Shown: positions 45,276-56,083, counted from the first letter of the stretch. The stretch: DNA of 64,000 bases from Clostridia bacterium (GCA_045635805.1 JAZTWI010000015.1:3474-67473), one strand, 5' to 3'. The notes: generated from the letters alone by a model not told the origin. Numbers and translations: made by a program.

Positions 45276-46403
45276 TTACATACCCATAAAGTCTTCTATT
45301 TTAGCACTCTGTGGTGGATAGCTTAGCTCTCCTGCCATCTCAGGGTTCTTTTTTGCCAAATACTGAGTCCAGAATGCAAGGGTATTTGCTTTATCTCTAC
45401 TAGGAGATTTAGCAGTTCTATTATTCTCTGCTTCTTTCTTAAATAACATATGAATTTGGAAGTCACCAAGTAATGCATTCTGCACTACTTCGTAGTCACT
45501 ATCATAATAATTATAATCGTGTGGCTCTCCGTGACACATATAGTATTGTGTTCTATGTGGAGATACTGTACTCCTTAAGTAAAAAGATAAATCTTTGACA
45601 CTAGAATGCTCATACGCCTTGAAAATCAAATCTTTATTCTCTAAAACCTTCTTGATATCTAGTAATGCTAACGAATCAAATCCATCACACTCAATACCAG
45701 CACTTACTATGTCACTGTGACCTGGTAGTGTCTTAGGTAATTCTCTAATAGCTTCTTTACCAAATCTTCTAGCCTGTTCACATAGCATATCAGTAGAAAG
45801 ACTAGCAAGTAGTGTTTGTATGTCTTCTTCTTTTTTCTTATCATCAAATAATGTATAGCCAGGCATACAACGCTTAACTGTATATATAATATTATCTTCT
45901 GGAAATACTTCTGCTAACATTTCTACAAAAGCAGGATTCTTCATCTGCTCACCAAAACCACTAAGCATTAGATGTAAATCAAAATAAGACTTTCTCTGAT
46001 GTTTACCATTTTTATCTTTTGGACATCTTCTATCATACTCTAGACTAAGGTATTGTCTCATAAAGTCAACATCACCTAGTAATTCTTCTGTTCTAGGTCT
46101 AGCATAAGATAACATATCAGGTCTATTTCTATACATAGCTAGCATAAATCTGCTATCTCTTATTTGCTCATCAGTAAGACCAAGTGCAGCTTCTTGCAAG
46201 TCTGTCCTTCTATCCATAATATGAGCAAGAAAAGCATTATCAATTTCTTCTCTACTAGCATCAGGTTTAACATGAGCCCTTCTCATAGTTCTCCTGATAT
46301 CTCTCTGTCTTCTTCTTTGATATTTCTCTCTTTCTCTTGCCATCTCTTTTTCATATTGAGCATTGATTTCTTCAATAGTTTTTTCTCTACCAAAAATTCC
46401 CAT
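45276..46403 (-). CDS. Hypothetical helical protein with DUF4116-like segments; ends ...IEDFMGM*
   Basis: Start ATG 46403 after AGGGGG. N-terminal charged coiled coil. Segments DSRFMLAMY, GDVDFMRQY, KNPAFVEML and ENKDLIFKAY recall D/N-x-x-F-hydrophobic repeats. Confidence 0.65.
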   Translation of the reverse strand: MGIFGREKTIEEINAQYEKEMAREREKYQRRRQRDIRRTMRRAHVKPDASREEIDNAFLAHIMDRRTDLQEAALGLTDEQIRDSRFMLAMYRNRPDMLSYARPRTEELLGDVDFMRQYLSLEYDRRCPKDKNGKHQRKSYFDLHLMLSGFGEQMKNPAFVEMLAEVFPEDNIIYTVKRCMPGYTLFDDKKKEEDIQTLLASLSTDMLCEQARRFGKEAIRELPKTLPGHSDIVSAGIECDGFDSLALLDIKKVLENKDLIFKAYEHSSVKDLSFYLRSTVSPHRTQYYMCHGEPHDYNYYDSDYEVVQNALLGDFQIHMLFKKEAENNRTAKSPSRDKANTLAFWTQYLAKKNPEMAGELSYPPQSAKIEDFMGM

Positions 46404-46506
46404 AATATATAATCCCCCTAATCGCAAAAGTATTATAGCATAGTAGTCACACAAATTCAATACCCAAAGTAAAAAAAGAGCCCTGGGCTCTTCTATATAA
46501 TATATA

Positions 46507-47298
46507 TTATTTCTCTATACCTTTGTCTCTCATACGCTCTTCGTACATAGACACTACCTTCAGCATGTCTGGTGGAAGCTTCTCTAGAGCTTTCTTTTTA
46601 AGTTCTTCAGGTACACCATACATCGCTTCTGCCATACTACCCACAATACAAGCATTAGTATCTGTATCCCCACCAAATGATATAGCCCTTACGATACTAT
46701 CTTCAAAAGACGTGGAATTAAATAATGAATACAAGCACACATCCATAGTATCACTACAGGTATAATTAAACTTTTCTATATTGGGTTTTTTGACAGTAAT
46801 CCCTAGTTTGCTGACAATATCTTCCTTGCTCACGCCATTACGTGCATAAAATATTATTTTAGCCACCATGGTCGCAGCATTAACTGCGTCTTCTGTATTG
46901 TGTGATGGAATTGTTGCTAGTCTTGCATTTTCTTCTACTTCTTCTATGGTATCAAATAGATATCCTACAGGTGACACTCTCATCATAGCACCATTGCCAG
47001 AACTAGTACCCACATACTTATCTTTCGCCCATTTCATAAAACCTGGAGAAAATGATGTCTCAAAATACGGAGTATGCTCAGGCTTATAACCAGAATATCT
47101 ATTGCCCCAATCTCTCAAAGATTTACCATAGTCTCCACCTTGCAATATAGCATCAGCCACAGCCATGGTGAGTATGGTATCATCACTATAAAAACTATTT
47201 TCTTCTATTATATTATTGACCTTCACAGGACTCACTTTCTTAATCTGAGAATACTCATATATTGAACCTGCTAGGTCTCCTATAATCGCTCCAAACAT
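46507..47298 (-). CDS. ADP-ribosylglycohydrolase (DraG/ARH family)
   Basis: GAIIGDLAGS.YE, SDDT, GNGAMMRVSP, SHN and GGDTDT..CIVGSMAEA: the Mg-binding motifs are complete. Confidence 0.92.
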   Translation of the reverse strand: MFGAIIGDLAGSIYEYSQIKKVSPVKVNNIIEENSFYSDDTILTMAVADAILQGGDYGKSLRDWGNRYSGYKPEHTPYFETSFSPGFMKWAKDKYVGTSSGNGAMMRVSPVGYLFDTIEEVEENARLATIPSHNTEDAVNAATMVAKIIFYARNGVSKEDIVSKLGITVKKPNIEKFNYTCSDTMDVCLYSLFNSTSFEDSIVRAISFGGDTDTNACIVGSMAEAMYGVPEELKKKALEKLPPDMLKVVSMYEERMRDKGIEK

Positions 47299-47369
47299 AA
47301 TATCGTCTCCTATTCGTAATATATTTTATCACAAAGTAGATATATATTCAATAACAAAAAAAGAACTCT

Positions 47370-47885
47370 TTAATCAAAGAGTCCCCTTTTCTTTCTCATA
47401 TCAAATACTGCAGGAATAAATGATGGTACATATGGAATAAATTTGTCCTTTGCAACTAAGTCCATTATCTCTTCTTTACTTGCCCACTTAACTTCTGCCA
47501 CTTCTTCTTTTTGGATTACGATATCTTCTATAGCAATATCTTTTTCGATAAAGTAGTAATCATCAAAGCCACCTTCGAAATTAATAGTTAAGTGTGGCCT
47601 ATGGTTAGTAAAGTCATAATCAACACCTAATTCTTCTAGGAGCTCTCTATGTGCTGTCTCCTTTGAATATTCTCCAGAAATAGAATTGCCACCACAGGAG
47701 AAGTCCCATTTACCTGGATATACCTTTTTATCTTCCACTCTCTTCTGAATAAGCATCTCGCCTTTAGAATTAAATAGACAAATATGTATAACTAGTCTAT
47801 TCTCTCCTACTCCACATTTCTCGCCCCTGACTAGGCTTTTGCCTGTCTTATGCCTTTCATCATCATAGATATCAAATCTTTCCAT
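47370..47885 (-). CDS. Nudix hydrolase (IDI-like/YfcD-type)
   Basis: LIQKR...K.YPGKWD..CGG and Nudix box GE.S.ETAHRELLEELG; start re-picked at ATG 47885 after GAGGT. Confidence 0.9.
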   Translation of the reverse strand: MERFDIYDDERHKTGKSLVRGEKCGVGENRLVIHICLFNSKGEMLIQKRVEDKKVYPGKWDFSCGGNSISGEYSKETAHRELLEELGVDYDFTNHRPHLTINFEGGFDDYYFIEKDIAIEDIVIQKEEVAEVKWASKEEIMDLVAKDKFIPYVPSFIPAVFDMRKKRGLFD

Positions 47886-54492: not shown

Positions 54493-54708
54493 ATTTTCTC
54501 CTATGTAAATAACTTTCTTATCTATAATATACCACAAAAATTTTTATAAGCAAAATAATCATAACAATACTTAATTATATAAGGAACTTTTATCCTAAAA
54601 CCAATATACAAACCCCACCGAATATGATATCTATAAAAAGCTTTGACTACACCCCACACTTTATTGTATATTTTATATGAAATAATTATTTTTCTACAGG
54701 GGTATTGT

Positions 54709-55377
54709 ATGATAGGATTTGTAGTCGCTATGGAAAAAGAAGCTAGACTTTTTCTAGAAAAAACCACCGAAACAAAAGAAAAACTAATCGCTGGGAAAAG
54801 GGTATTTAGTGGTAAGTATTTAGATACAGATTTTACATTAATCATATCTGGAATAGGTAAGGTTAATGCAGCTCTAGCAACTCAAGTATTGATTGACAAA
54901 TTCACTCCCGACTACATTATTAATTTTGGTGTAGCAGGTGGCAAAGAAAATAGTGGACTACAGGCAGGAGATATTGTGTTATTAGATAAAATCTGTCAAT
55001 ACGACTTCGACCTAAGCGAAATAGACAACGTAAACATAGGATATATGCAGGACTATGATACCACATATTACACCACAGCGTATAAAAGGTATATTGGCAA
55101 TAACTTTGTAATAAAAAGTGGAGCATCTGGAGACAGATTCACTAGACAAAGATTCTGGTTAGACATTATCAAAGAACTAAAGGCTGGAGTTGTAGATATG
55201 GAAAGTGGCGCAATAGCCCAAGTTTGTTCAGCTAATCAAGTGGAATTCTTTTCTCTAAAACTAATCTCAGATACCGATGGCAAAGAAGAGAGCATATTTG
55301 AGCAATACGCAAATAACGTCACCACTATTTGTAATAAAATACCCGATGCAATTAGAGAACTTGTAAATAATATATAA
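54709..55377 (+). CDS. mtnN: 5'-methylthioadenosine/S-adenosylhomocysteine nucleosidase
   Basis: MIGFVVAMEKE, SGIGKVNAA, INFGVAGG, DMESGAIAQVC, KLISD; start re-picked at ATG 54709. Confidence 0.88.
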   Translation: MIGFVVAMEKEARLFLEKTTETKEKLIAGKRVFSGKYLDTDFTLIISGIGKVNAALATQVLIDKFTPDYIINFGVAGGKENSGLQAGDIVLLDKICQYDFDLSEIDNVNIGYMQDYDTTYYTTAYKRYIGNNFVIKSGASGDRFTRQRFWLDIIKELKAGVVDMESGAIAQVCSANQVEFFSLKLISDTDGKEESIFEQYANNVTTICNKIPDAIRELVNNI

Positions 55378-55537
55378 TAACCAAAACAACACCTTGTAGT
55401 GTTGTTTTTTCTTCAAGACAATCGAAAAATATCTCTCACATATAAATCTCCATAATAATAAATAAAATTACATCTTGAAATCCCCTTATCTATATGCTAT
55501 ACTACTAGCGATTAATTTGGGATATGGGGATAAAATT

Positions 55538-56083
55538 ATGGCAAACAAAAAAGTACAAACATACTTAGAAGAAGTAGAGAGCAAGAGAAATTCAGCAGAC
55601 ACAGCAGAACTAGCTGCTAAAGTTTTTACAGGTATCACTGCTGGTGTTACTCTATTTGCAGGACTTATGGGCGCTACAGGCGAAGTTTCTGCAGAGATTG
55701 GTTATAAGCATTTATACAATGATGTAGTTATCAATGGCTCATTTGATGCAGAAGCATTTGCTAAGAGAAATGAACTAATAGATAGTTTCACATCTGGCGC
55801 TATTAGCCAAGAAGAATACGATGCAGGAATTGCAAACTTATACTCTAGAGAAGCTGTAGTAGACTATGCAAAAAACTCTCAAGACAAAAGAATTAGCAAT
55901 CTAGCCAAGTCTTATGAGTCTACTAAAGATATGGGAGATATTGTTACTAAAGAAGGTATACCTACTATGCTTGCTTTCACTACTGCAGGTGCAGCTGCTT
56001 GGACTGTAACTGACGCTATCAGAAGAAAGTATGATAGAATCTTAAGGGAATACAAAAAAGAGCACGAAAACGAAGGTATGTAA
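55538..56083 (+). CDS. Hypothetical protein with two Gly/Ala-rich hydrophobic helices; ends ...HENEGM*
   Basis: TTGAAA-17-TATACT promoter at 55475-55503, start ATG 55538, terminator at ~56087-56118. Confidence 0.7.
   Translation: MANKKVQTYLEEVESKRNSADTAELAAKVFTGITAGVTLFAGLMGATGEVSAEIGYKHLYNDVVINGSFDAEAFAKRNELIDSFTSGAISQEEYDAGIANLYSREAVVDYAKNSQDKRISNLAKSYESTKDMGDIVTKEGIPTMLAFTTAGAAAWTVTDAIRRKYDRILREYKKEHENEGM

What the first reader, a model, noticed from the sequence alone, without database searches (positions are those of the whole stretch)
45276..56083. Conserved C-terminal Gly-Met-stop tag on unrelated accessory proteins: candidate new export or sorting signal
Seen: 4 of the 34 complete CDSs called here end in the identical 9-mer GGT-ATG-TAA after an acidic stretch: ...IEDFMGM* (45276-84), ...IDEKGGM* (47997-48005), ...ESEKGGM* (49332-40) and ...HENEGM* (56075-83). 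They belong to three non-homologous families, all accessory, all lacking signal peptides and all within 11 kb; none of the housekeeping genes ends this way. Inference: a lineage-specific C-terminal signal (secretion-substrate tag, C-degron or protease-adaptor site) marking possible effector proteins. Alternatively it is a nucleotide-level motif (SD-like AAGG/GGT abutting ATG-TAA) that affects termination. In the 49332 case it may partly serve as the SD for the next gene.
Basis: partly seen in the sequence, partly recalled or inferred. Interest (0 to 1): 0.8.

Follow-up and report, generated by a model that had tools for sequence, protein, structure and literature searches.

The report
Acidic C-terminal Met tag on accessory proteins
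Four neighbouring accessory genes of a small-genome gut Clostridia bacterium end in Gly-Met-stop, and this is the local form of a genus-wide tail (acidic residues, then a methionine within the last four residues) carried by dozens of unrelated, uncharacterised proteins; it is probably a recognition tag whose reader is still unknown.

Summary
GGTATGTAA occurs four times in the window, each time as the last two codons plus the stop of a long ORF. These are the only four of about 1,045 ORFs in the 1.24 Mb genome that end in Gly-Met, and they lie within 10.8 kb (permutation p < 5e-6).

"GM*" itself is not the conserved unit. Homologues of all three families keep an acidic tail with Met in the last 1-4 residues: 45/70, 55/84 and 16/35 members, against 0-5 (0-11 in the last family) in control windows. 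Glycine, acidic and stop codons vary among them, so the feature is at the protein level.

- **Sister species G018:** 30 ORFs carry the tail against 8.7 expected. Met is the most enriched residue, and 22/30 carriers are absent from this genome (p = 9e-5). Nineteen of 20 scanned have no Pfam domain.
- **G020:** 9 of 17 consecutive ORFs carry it.
- **Controls:** two outgroup genomes show no enrichment, and neither does the window's own genome as a whole.

Carriers are soluble or membrane-hairpin proteins with cytoplasmic tails.

My best reading is a cytoplasmically read recognition tag. The leading candidate reader is the coupling protein of a type IV secretion-like apparatus whose VirB4 is core to the genus (25/25 genomes), by analogy with the Legionella E-block. 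That link is circumstantial. A degron, a docking motif or a neutral by-product remain possible.

The parts
49332..50594 (-). 420-aa active metallophosphoesterase-family protein ending ...ESEKGGM. Model: catalytic core, a 50-residue helix, a short helix, then a disordered tail.
   Evidence: Motifs DxH (67-69), GD (99-100), GNHE (159-162), H215/H216 and GHxH (243-245) are invariant in 31 homologues. PHROG 7339 E = 4e-23; Pfam Metallophos is weak. AF2 pLDDT is 72 overall and below 50 for residues 413-420. Fold hits are generic for the superfamily (LpxH, Mre11, Vps29, YydB). Met lies in the last 4 residues in 45/70 homologues.
47997..49328 (-). 443-aa catalytically dead paralogue (pseudo-enzyme partner) ending ...IDEKGGM. 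It starts 4 nt after the 420-aa gene's stop.
   Evidence: BLASTP against the 420-aa protein gives E = 8e-5. The metal-binding motifs are replaced (NGGLF, GTEEHR). It is always adjacent to the 420-aa homologue in relatives. Met lies in the last 4 residues in 55/84 homologues.
45276..46403 (-). 375-aa orphan protein (the ORF can be extended to a TTG at 46460) ending ...IEDFMGM.
   Evidence: No Pfam, PADLOC or PHROG hit. Found in 4/25 genomes of the genus. Close homologues end FMGV, FMGL or CMGNV, and a distant one ends AEMGE.
55538..56083 (+). 181-aa two-pass membrane protein (ORF from a TTG at 55475 gives 202 aa) ending ...KKEHENEGM. Predicted as a long helical hairpin with N- and C-termini in the cytoplasm.
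   Evidence: Alignment A3 of 34 members shows TM1, a roughly 100-aa outer helical cap, TM2, a basic RRKYxRK stretch and an acidic tail. AF2 pLDDT is 90.5, with no PDB match at E < 0.04. Among representatives at 50% identity, 16/35 have Met in the last 4 residues. A paralogue lies at G000:C13:152471-153040.
45276..45284 (-). GGT-ATG-TAA, tail codons of the 375-aa protein; an intrinsic terminator hairpin follows.
47997..48005 (-). GGT-ATG-TAA, tail codons of the 443-aa protein; a terminator hairpin follows.
49332..49340 (-). GGT-ATG-TAA, tail codons of the 420-aa protein. The GGGGGT also lies 9 nt upstream of the next gene's ATG, so it probably doubles as its SD.
56075..56083 (+). GGT-ATG-TAA, tail codons of the 2-TM protein; a terminator hairpin follows.

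Best explanation
The four Gly-Met-stop ends are this species' version of a genus-specific C-terminal short linear motif: a disordered acidic run followed by a methionine within the last one to four residues. Many unrelated, mostly uncharacterised accessory proteins carry it, both soluble proteins and membrane hairpins whose C-termini face the cytoplasm.

The motif is kept by selection on the protein. It most likely works as a recognition tag read in the cytoplasm by one shared partner. The best candidate reader (inferred, not shown) is the VirD4-type coupling protein of a chromosomal type IV secretion-like apparatus whose VirB4 ATPase is in every genome of the genus sampled. On that reading the tail would be a translocation signal, working like the Glu-rich 'E-block' signals of Legionella Dot/Icm substrates, which include inner-membrane effectors with C-in topology.
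For: **Shown**
- Family conservation: Met lies in the last 4 residues in 45/70, 55/84 and 16/35 family members, against 0-5 per control window (0-11 in the last family). Positions -5 to -10 are 40-70% acidic in the first family (about 20-55% in the second).
- Codons and stop codons vary, so the conservation is at the protein level.
- In G018, 30 ORFs carry the tail against 8.7 expected. Met is the single most enriched residue in the last four positions of acidic tails (32 against 13.1, p = 7e-6), while L, I, V, F and Y are not enriched (ratios 0.44-0.87).
- 22/30 G018 carriers have no homologue in G000, against a 37% background (Fisher p = 9e-5). Of 20 scanned, 19 lack a Pfam domain above cut-off.
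- In the G020 island, 9 of 17 consecutive ORFs carry the tail.
- A homologous pair at 30-33% identity keeps ...GRDM.
- Outgroups G031 and G026 show no enrichment.
- The tail is disordered in the AF2 model. It follows a basic juxtamembrane stretch on the cytoplasmic side of the 2-TM family.

**Candidate reader**
- G000 has a VirB4-like ATPase, two VirB2-like pilins, a candidate VirB6-like membrane protein (930 aa, no Pfam hit) and a VirD4-type coupling protein (PF02534, E = 6e-53).
- VirB4 is present in 25/25 genus genomes at 57-95% identity.
- No MOB_P relaxase and no Rep_trans above cut-off were found.
- There is no T7SS: no WXG100 and no EssC.
- In G018 a 479-aa carrier lies two genes downstream of the homologue of that membrane protein.

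**Precedent**
- DotM binds acidic C-terminal tails (PMC5802825).
- Transmembrane effectors need a C-terminal signal that faces the cytoplasm (PMC11602083).
Against: - No direct link between the tail and the T4SS was found. Carriers are scattered around the genome and mostly not next to T4SS genes.
- The window's own genome has the T4SS but shows no genome-wide enrichment of the tail (9 against 10.2).
- G031 has a distant VirB4 homologue but no motif.
- Some distant members of the metallophosphoesterase pair carry a QLSLF-like clamp-binding motif before the tail (P0068, P0160). That suggests they act on DNA inside a bacterial cell, possibly the producer itself.
- No effector-translocating T4SS with a C-terminal signal turned up for Gram-positive bacteria in the held literature.
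- ORFs were called with a crude longest-ORF method, not a trained gene finder.
Confidence: 0.35

Rival explanations
1. The tail is a cytoplasmic docking or turnover tag unrelated to secretion. It could be a C-degron for an AAA+ protease or adaptor, or a carboxylate-clamp (TPR-type) or basic-patch ligand that brings the carriers to a common hub. This would work like the SSB acidic tip or the Hsp70/Hsp90 MEEVD tails.
For: - The sequence evidence for a selected C-terminal motif is the same as for the best explanation.
- The tails are cytoplasmic and disordered.
- The metallophosphoesterase pair looks like an intracellular nucleic-acid or phosphodiester enzyme, and some members carry a clamp-binding-like QLSLF.
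- Carriers sit in a defence-island-like setting beside a PARIS-like AriA/AriB pair, a NUDIX protein and an ADP-ribosylglycohydrolase. Regulated stability or assembly would make sense there.
Against: - No candidate reader was identified.
- The general proteases (ClpXP, Lon, FtsH) are universal and would not explain a motif confined to one genus.
- Known bacterial C-degrons are non-polar (LAA-type), not acidic (background knowledge).
- The metallophosphoesterase pair is not the hub. It is absent from genomes that still have tailed proteins (G001, G024) and co-occurs only weakly with the 2-TM family (p = 0.08).
Confidence: 0.25
2. There is no dedicated function. Acidic, disordered C-terminal extensions are common on fast-evolving orphan proteins. 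The Met excess and the four GM* ends would then reflect shared ancestry within families, recombination among island genes, or a mutational or translational bias specific to this genus.
For: - The own genome shows no enrichment (9 against 10.2; Met ratio 0.72).
- GM* at 4 against about 1.5 expected is not significant by count alone.
- Two of the four carriers are paralogues.
- Sequences within a family are not independent samples.
- Random accessory ORFs of G018 are also mostly Pfam-less (7/10), so 'dark' is not specific to carriers.
Against: - Met is retained near the end while the rest of the tail is unalignable and differs in length, in three unrelated families down to 20-30% identity.
- Enrichment is specific to Met; other hydrophobic residues are not enriched.
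- About 20 mutually unrelated G018 proteins carry the tail.
- The four GM* genes lie within 10.8 kb (p < 5e-6).
- No repeat or shared DNA extends beyond the 9-mer.
Confidence: 0.2
3. It is a nucleotide-level element: an SD-like G-rich stretch plus ATG-TAA (a 'start-stop' mini-ORF or termination-context signal) at the 3' ends of these genes.
For: All four carry the identical 9-mer GGTATGTAA. In one case the G-run can act as the SD for the downstream gene. Given GM*, the identical codon choice has p of about 0.03.
Against: - Orthologues use GGA, GGG, GAG or GAA before the ATG, use TAA, TAG or TGA as stops, or place the Met 1-3 codons before the stop.
- The G-rich stretch is 1-4 nt from the ATG, too close for initiation, and is absent in the 45276 case (TTTATGGGTATG).
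- The 9-mer is not over-represented genome-wide: 9 copies in 1.24 Mb against about 18 extrapolated from the shuffle rate.
Confidence: 0.03

Closest known systems
Glu-rich 'E-block' C-terminal translocation signal of Legionella/Coxiella Dot/Icm (type IVB) substrates, read by DotM of the coupling complex
   Same: - An unstructured, strongly acidic stretch lies within the last 10-30 residues of hundreds of unrelated, fast-evolving accessory proteins without Sec signals, with hydrophobic residues near the very end.
- Inner-membrane effectors with C-in topology carry it too (PMC5802825, PMC11602083).
- The same genome encodes a T4SS with a coupling protein.
   Different: - The host here is a Gram-positive-type Clostridia bacterium with a minimal VirB4/VirB6/VirD4-type system; no DotM or IcmSW was identified.
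- The acidic run is short and mixes Asp and Glu.
- The diagnostic residue is a single Met at -1 to -4, which is not part of the E-block definition.
- Translocation is untested.
Acidic C-terminal docking tips (SSB ...DDDIPF; phage T7 gp2.5 and gp4 tails; Hsp70/Hsp90 ...MEEVD bound by TPR carboxylate clamps)
   Same: A disordered acidic tail ends in one or two hydrophobic residues plus the free carboxylate, and is used as a portable protein-protein interaction handle.
   Different: In those cases one hub protein carries the tip and many partners read it. Here many unrelated proteins carry the tip, which implies a single reader. There is no Pro-Phe or Val-Asp signature, and the carriers are not SSBs or chaperones.
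C-terminal protein-sorting signals of the Haft type (LPXTG/sortase, PEP-CTERM/exosortase, GlyGly-CTERM/rhombosortase)
   Same: A short lineage-restricted C-terminal signature is shared by many unrelated proteins of one genome and is paired with a dedicated processing machine.
   Different: Those signals consist of a motif, a transmembrane helix and a basic cluster on proteins already exported by Sec. Here no helix follows the motif, the carriers have no signal peptide, and the tail is cytoplasmic.
C-terminal signal of ESX/T7SS substrates (the EsxB/CFP-10 tail bound by the EccC ATPase)
   Same: A short unstructured C-terminal peptide containing Met/Gly/hydrophobic residues is recognised by a secretion ATPase.
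   Different: The genome has no WXG100 protein and no EssC/EccC-type multi-domain FtsK ATPase. The carriers are not WXG100 or LXG helical bundles.
GroEL C-terminal (GGM)n repeats
   Same: Two of the four proteins literally end in GGM.
   Different: They have a single copy rather than a repeat, the carriers are not chaperonins, and homologues replace GGM with EM, EMGE and similar endings. The resemblance is superficial.

Membership tests
Dot/Icm-type acidic (E-block) T4SS translocation signal | Signal lies in the unstructured last 20-30 residues and is net acidic | tested here: met
   Acidic residues make up 40-70% of positions -5 to -10 in the 420-aa family (about 20-55% in the 443-aa family). 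Tail pLDDT is below 50. Anchored logo: [DE]x[DE]M.
Dot/Icm-type acidic (E-block) T4SS translocation signal | Block of several consecutive Glu residues (EExxE-type) | tested here: inconclusive
   Many tails have EEE, DDD or mixed runs. The window's four have only 2-4 scattered acidic residues.
Dot/Icm-type acidic (E-block) T4SS translocation signal | A T4SS with a coupling protein is encoded in the same genome | tested here: met
   VirB4-like ATPase, two VirB2-like pilins and a VirD4-type T4CP (PF02534, E = 6e-53) are present. VirB4 is in 25/25 genomes of the genus.
Dot/Icm-type acidic (E-block) T4SS translocation signal | A type IVB coupling complex with DotM/IcmSW adaptors reads the signal | not tested
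   No search for DotM, IcmS or IcmW was run. The cluster looks like a minimal Gram-positive type IVA-like system.
Dot/Icm-type acidic (E-block) T4SS translocation signal | Tail is necessary and sufficient for T4SS-dependent translocation | not testable with these tools
   Needs reporter-fusion experiments.
Sortase / exosortase / rhombosortase-type C-terminal sorting signals | Tripartite signal: motif, hydrophobic helix, basic cluster at the extreme C-terminus, on Sec-exported proteins | tested here: not met
   No hydrophobic segment follows the motif, and the soluble carriers have no signal peptide or TM segment.
T7SS (ESX / T7SSb) substrate signal | WXG100 partner and an EssC/EccC FtsK-type ATPase in the genome | tested here: not met
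   PF06013 gave no hit. PF01580 gave only one bona fide FtsK/SpoIIIE plus the VirB4 P-loop.
SSB-Ct acidic tip | Carrier is an OB-fold SSB and the tail ends D-D-D-[IL]-P-F | tested here: not met
   Carriers are metallophosphoesterase-fold, membrane-hairpin or orphan proteins. No P-F ending was seen.
Calcineurin-like metallophosphoesterase superfamily (420-aa protein) | Five metal-binding motifs: DxH, GD, GNHE, H, GHxH | tested here: met
   All are invariant in 31 homologues. The MPE fold is recovered by Foldseek at probability 1.0. The Pfam whole-protein score is just below cut-off (20.1 against 21.5).
Calcineurin-like metallophosphoesterase superfamily (443-aa protein) | Five metal-binding motifs | tested here: not met
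   The motifs are replaced (NGGLF, GTEEHR), and no DxH or GHxH is conserved. Homology to the 420-aa protein is retained (PHROG 7339 weak). It is a pseudo-enzyme paralogue, not an active member.

The most novel reading that the evidence does not exclude
The acidic-Met tail is the translocation signal of a chromosomal type IV secretion apparatus, with no relaxase found so far, whose VirB4 is core to a genus of about 1.2 Mb gut Christensenellales. The dozens of Pfam-less tailed proteins per genome would be its effector repertoire: soluble enzymes such as the enzyme/pseudo-enzyme phosphoesterase pair, and membrane hairpins extracted from the producer's membrane. This would be the first sequence-recognisable effector signal for a T4SS of a Gram-positive-type commensal.
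Probability: 0.3. Interest if true: 0.85.

Novelty: new variant of a known kind. Interest (0 to 1): 0.6.

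Why it matters
If the tail is a genuine recognition tag, it gives a sequence handle on the "dark" accessory proteome of a widespread group of uncultured, small-genome gut Clostridia. Dozens of unrelated orphan proteins per genome could be grouped as clients of one machine.

If that machine is the core, apparently non-conjugative T4SS, these bacteria would have an effector-delivery lifestyle that has not been described for Gram-positive commensals. 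Effectors could then be predicted from sequence alone.

Even on the more modest readings (degron or docking tag), it would be a lineage-specific C-terminal linear motif whose reader can now be sought by peptide pull-down.

Tried and rejected
- **DNA-level motif.** Rejected. Codons and stops vary in orthologues, and the 9-mer is not over-represented genome-wide.
- **Repeat or mobile element creating shared 3' ends.** Rejected. Nothing is shared beyond the 9-mer, and the downstream sequences are unrelated terminators.
- **T7SS signal.** Rejected. The genome has no WXG100 and no EssC.
- **The metallophosphoesterase pair as reader of the tails** (an idea prompted by Vps29 peptide-complex fold hits). 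Rejected. Tailed proteins occur in genomes without the pair, and co-occurrence with the 2-TM family is weak.
- **DNA patterns as a proxy for the tail across many genomes.** Useless. Counts do not separate G018 from G000.
- **Outgroup test of the T4SS link.** Uninformative. G031, which has a distant VirB4, and G026, which has none, both lack the motif, so this only shows that the motif is specific to the genus.
- **Fold searches.** The 420-aa protein gives only generic superfamily matches and the 2-TM protein gives none, so neither yields a functional clue.
- **'Carriers are darker than other accessory genes'.** Not established: 1/20 carriers against 3/10 controls have a Pfam domain above cut-off.
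- **PADLOC.** No hit for any of the four carriers.
- **Literature.** I found no description of this motif or of Gram-positive T4SS effector signals in the held library.

Full report
**1. The observation.** The 9-mer GGTATGTAA occurs four times in the window, at exactly the stated coordinates. Dinucleotide shuffles give 0.94 on average, and 1 of 100 reaches four. Each copy is Gly-Met-stop at the end of a long ORF. I laid out the whole assembly (1.24 Mb, 16 contigs, 33.5% GC, 98.9% complete) and called ORFs crudely: longest ORFs of at least 70 aa, greedy and non-overlapping, 1,045 ORFs covering 90% of the DNA. Only four ORFs end in GM, and they are the window's four. Composition predicts 1.4-1.6. 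The count alone is unremarkable, but the placement is not: four random genes spanned 11 kb or less in 0 of 200,000 permutations.

**2. What the four genes are.** The 420-aa protein is a metallophosphoesterase with all five metal-binding motifs invariant in 31 homologues. The adjacent 443-aa protein is a distant paralogue that has lost them, so it is a pseudo-enzyme partner. The two genes are always adjacent in relatives, with varying flanks. The pair is found in 12 of 25 genomes of the genus and, apart from one marginal partial hit (G039, E = 4.9e-4), in none of 16 other genera of the order.

The AF2 model of the 420-aa protein (pLDDT 72) shows the catalytic core, a 50-residue helix, a short helix and a disordered last eight residues. 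Foldseek returns only generic superfamily members.

The 375/394-aa protein has no detectable family and occurs in 4 of 25 genomes.

The 202-aa ORF (181 aa from its likely start) belongs to a genus-restricted family of two-pass membrane proteins found in 12 of 25 genomes, often in tandem arrays. AF2 predicts, at pLDDT 90.5, one long helical hairpin with a small outer cap, and nothing in the PDB resembles it. The positive-inside rule and the RRKYxRK stretch after TM2 put its tail in the cytoplasm.

The neighbourhood looks like a mosaic accessory or defence island next to tRNA-Ser. It holds an ADP-ribosylglycohydrolase, a NUDIX hydrolase, a PARIS-like AriA ATPase with its partner, and two further paralogous membrane proteins.

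**3. GM* is not the unit; an acidic-Met tail is.** Homologues of the 420-aa family end in EGM, GGM, GGME, EMGE, EMGD(K), EEM, DREM, ELLK and similar. Those of the 443-aa family end in KEM, EEM, EEMI, EME, DMELD, EMGK and similar.
- Met lies in the last four residues in 45/70 and 55/84 members. Each of nine control four-residue windows further in has 0-5. In the 420-aa family positions -5 to -10 are 40-70% acidic (about 20-55% in the 443-aa family).
- In the 2-TM family, sampled as representatives at 50% identity, 16/35 members have Met there, with endings such as EMAD, EMGE, EQEM and ELAD.
- In the 394-aa family, close relatives end in FMGV, FMGL or CMGNV, and a distant one ends in AEMGE.

The tails are otherwise unalignable and differ in length. 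The codons differ too: GGA, GGG or GGT for Gly; GAG or GAA for the acidic residue; TAA, TAG or TGA for the stop. Conservation is therefore at the protein level. GGT is 54% of Gly codons and TAA 75% of stops here, so an identical 9-mer is only mildly surprising once GM* is given (p about 0.03).

**4. Genome-scale test.** I defined a tail as Met in the last four residues plus at least three D/E in the last ten.
- **Own genome (G000):** no enrichment, 9 observed against 10.2 expected from internal windows.
- **Sister species G018:** I assembled it from 67 fetched pieces (1.27 Mb, 1,016 ORFs). It has 30 tails against 8.7 expected.
- **Residue specificity in G018:** within acidic tails, Met is the most enriched residue (32 against 13.1, p = 7e-6). 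L, I, V, F and Y are not enriched (ratios 0.44-0.87).
- **Accessory bias in G018:** 22 of the 30 carriers have no homologue in G000, against a 37% background (odds ratio 4.7, p = 9e-5).
- **Diversity of carriers:** they are mutually unrelated by BLAST. Of 20 scanned, 19 lack a Pfam domain above cut-off. Random accessory ORFs are also mostly dark (7/10), so this is not specific to carriers.
- **G020 island:** in a 14-kb island that holds the phosphoesterase pair, 9 of 17 consecutive ORFs meet the strict rule and 13 of 17 have Met in the last six residues.
- **Outgroups:** partial genomes of two other families show nothing. G031 gives 1 against 4.6 and G026 gives 3 against 2.9.

Anchoring 44 tails on their last Met gives [DE]-x-[DE]-M followed by the end (20 tails) or by E/G/D plus 0-2 residues. 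The residue before Met is D/E in 30 tails and G in 4, and those 4 are the window's proteins. The window therefore shows a local variant of a motif shared across the genus.

**5. How it might work.** The carriers include soluble proteins and membrane hairpins. The tails are cytoplasmic, so whatever reads them is cytoplasmic or sits on the inner face of the membrane.

There is no T7SS: no WXG100, and only one true FtsK/SpoIIIE.

There is a T4SS-like cluster on contig C9. It has a VirB3/4-like ATPase (P-loop_TraG, AAA_10), two VirB2/TrbC-like pilins, a 930-aa membrane protein and two Pfam-less giant proteins. A VirD4-type coupling protein (PF02534, E = 6e-53) lies divergently next to it. The ATPase is present in all 25 genomes of the genus at 57-95% identity. 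No MOB_P relaxase and no Rep_trans above cut-off were found. This fits an earlier, unchecked note that called the apparatus chromosomal and relaxase-less.

There is published precedent. Legionella DotM binds acidic C-terminal tails (PMC5802825). Transmembrane Dot/Icm effectors need a C-terminal signal that faces the cytoplasm (PMC11602083).

In G018 one 479-aa carrier lies two genes downstream of the homologue of that 930-aa membrane protein, and two near-motif ORFs lie 7 kb from VirB4.

All of this is circumstantial. Most carriers are not near T4SS genes. G000 has the T4SS but few carriers. Some distant members of the phosphoesterase pair carry a QLSLF-like clamp-binding motif, which suggests they act on bacterial DNA metabolism.

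I put the T4SS-signal reading at about one in three, a non-secretory docking or degron tag at about one in four, a neutral by-product at about one in five, and a DNA-level element at a few per cent.

**6. Comparison with what is known, and novelty.** The closest analogue in mechanism is the Dot/Icm E-block. The closest analogues in concept are the Haft-type C-terminal sorting signals and the acidic docking tips of SSB or MEEVD type. The membership tests show that this motif is not a member of any of these. I found no published description of the motif.

Noticed in passing
G000:C9:26000-46100 (L036 = C9:24000-43999; outside the window): A type IV secretion-like cluster: VirB3/4-like ATPase (895 aa), two VirB2-like pilins, a 930-aa membrane protein, Pfam-less 1,637-aa and 1,130-aa proteins, and a divergent VirD4-type coupling protein. 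The ATPase is in 25/25 genomes of this roughly 1.2 Mb-genome genus at 57-95% identity. No MOB_P relaxase and no Rep_trans were found. This looks like a core, non-conjugative T4SS.
   Followed up: partly
window 51611-53945 (+), flanked by 50691-51356 (-) and 53974-54537 (-): A PARIS-like pair: an AriA-type AAA_15/AAA_21 ATPase (PADLOC AriA E = 5e-31) plus a 326-aa partner with no DUF4435 hit. It lies in a 28% GC stretch between two paralogous membrane proteins that are 31% identical.
   Followed up: partly
window 46507-47903 (-): An ADP-ribosylglycohydrolase (Pfam E = 1e-31) and a NUDIX hydrolase (weak Acb1-like and PADLOC PDC-S07 hits) sit between the tailed genes. They could be defence or counter-defence accessories.
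   Followed up: no
P0068, P0160 and L015 (G012:C4): Distant members of both phosphoesterase families carry a QLSLF or QLSLDF sequence just before the acidic-Met tail. It resembles the bacterial sliding-clamp-binding motif.
   Followed up: no
L026 (G020:C7:103000-111000): An array of about eleven tandem, highly diverged paralogues of small two-pass membrane proteins (160-225 aa) lies directly upstream of the phosphoesterase pair. Most carry the acidic-Met tail.
   Followed up: partly
window 3108-27497 (-): A single 8,129-aa ORF. G018 has a 9,461-aa counterpart (29% identity to another G000 giant) next to a tailed 449-aa protein.
   Followed up: no
G000:C13:150815-153040 and L032 (G015:C1:225000-227000): A small Pfam-less protein (92-109 aa) ending ...DPEMDDCM or ...ENEEYMF lies about 1.4 kb from (in G015 about 1 kb from) a paralogue of the 2-TM family in two genomes. 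This is a second conserved neighbourhood of tailed genes.
   Followed up: no
window 57736-57823 (-): tRNA-Ser(GGA) lies at the right edge of the variable region. The closest relative, G015, keeps the 2-TM gene and the hydrogenase-like genes in synteny but has the phosphoesterase pair 210 kb away. The island between 44.3 and 55.4 kb is therefore mosaic.
   Followed up: partly
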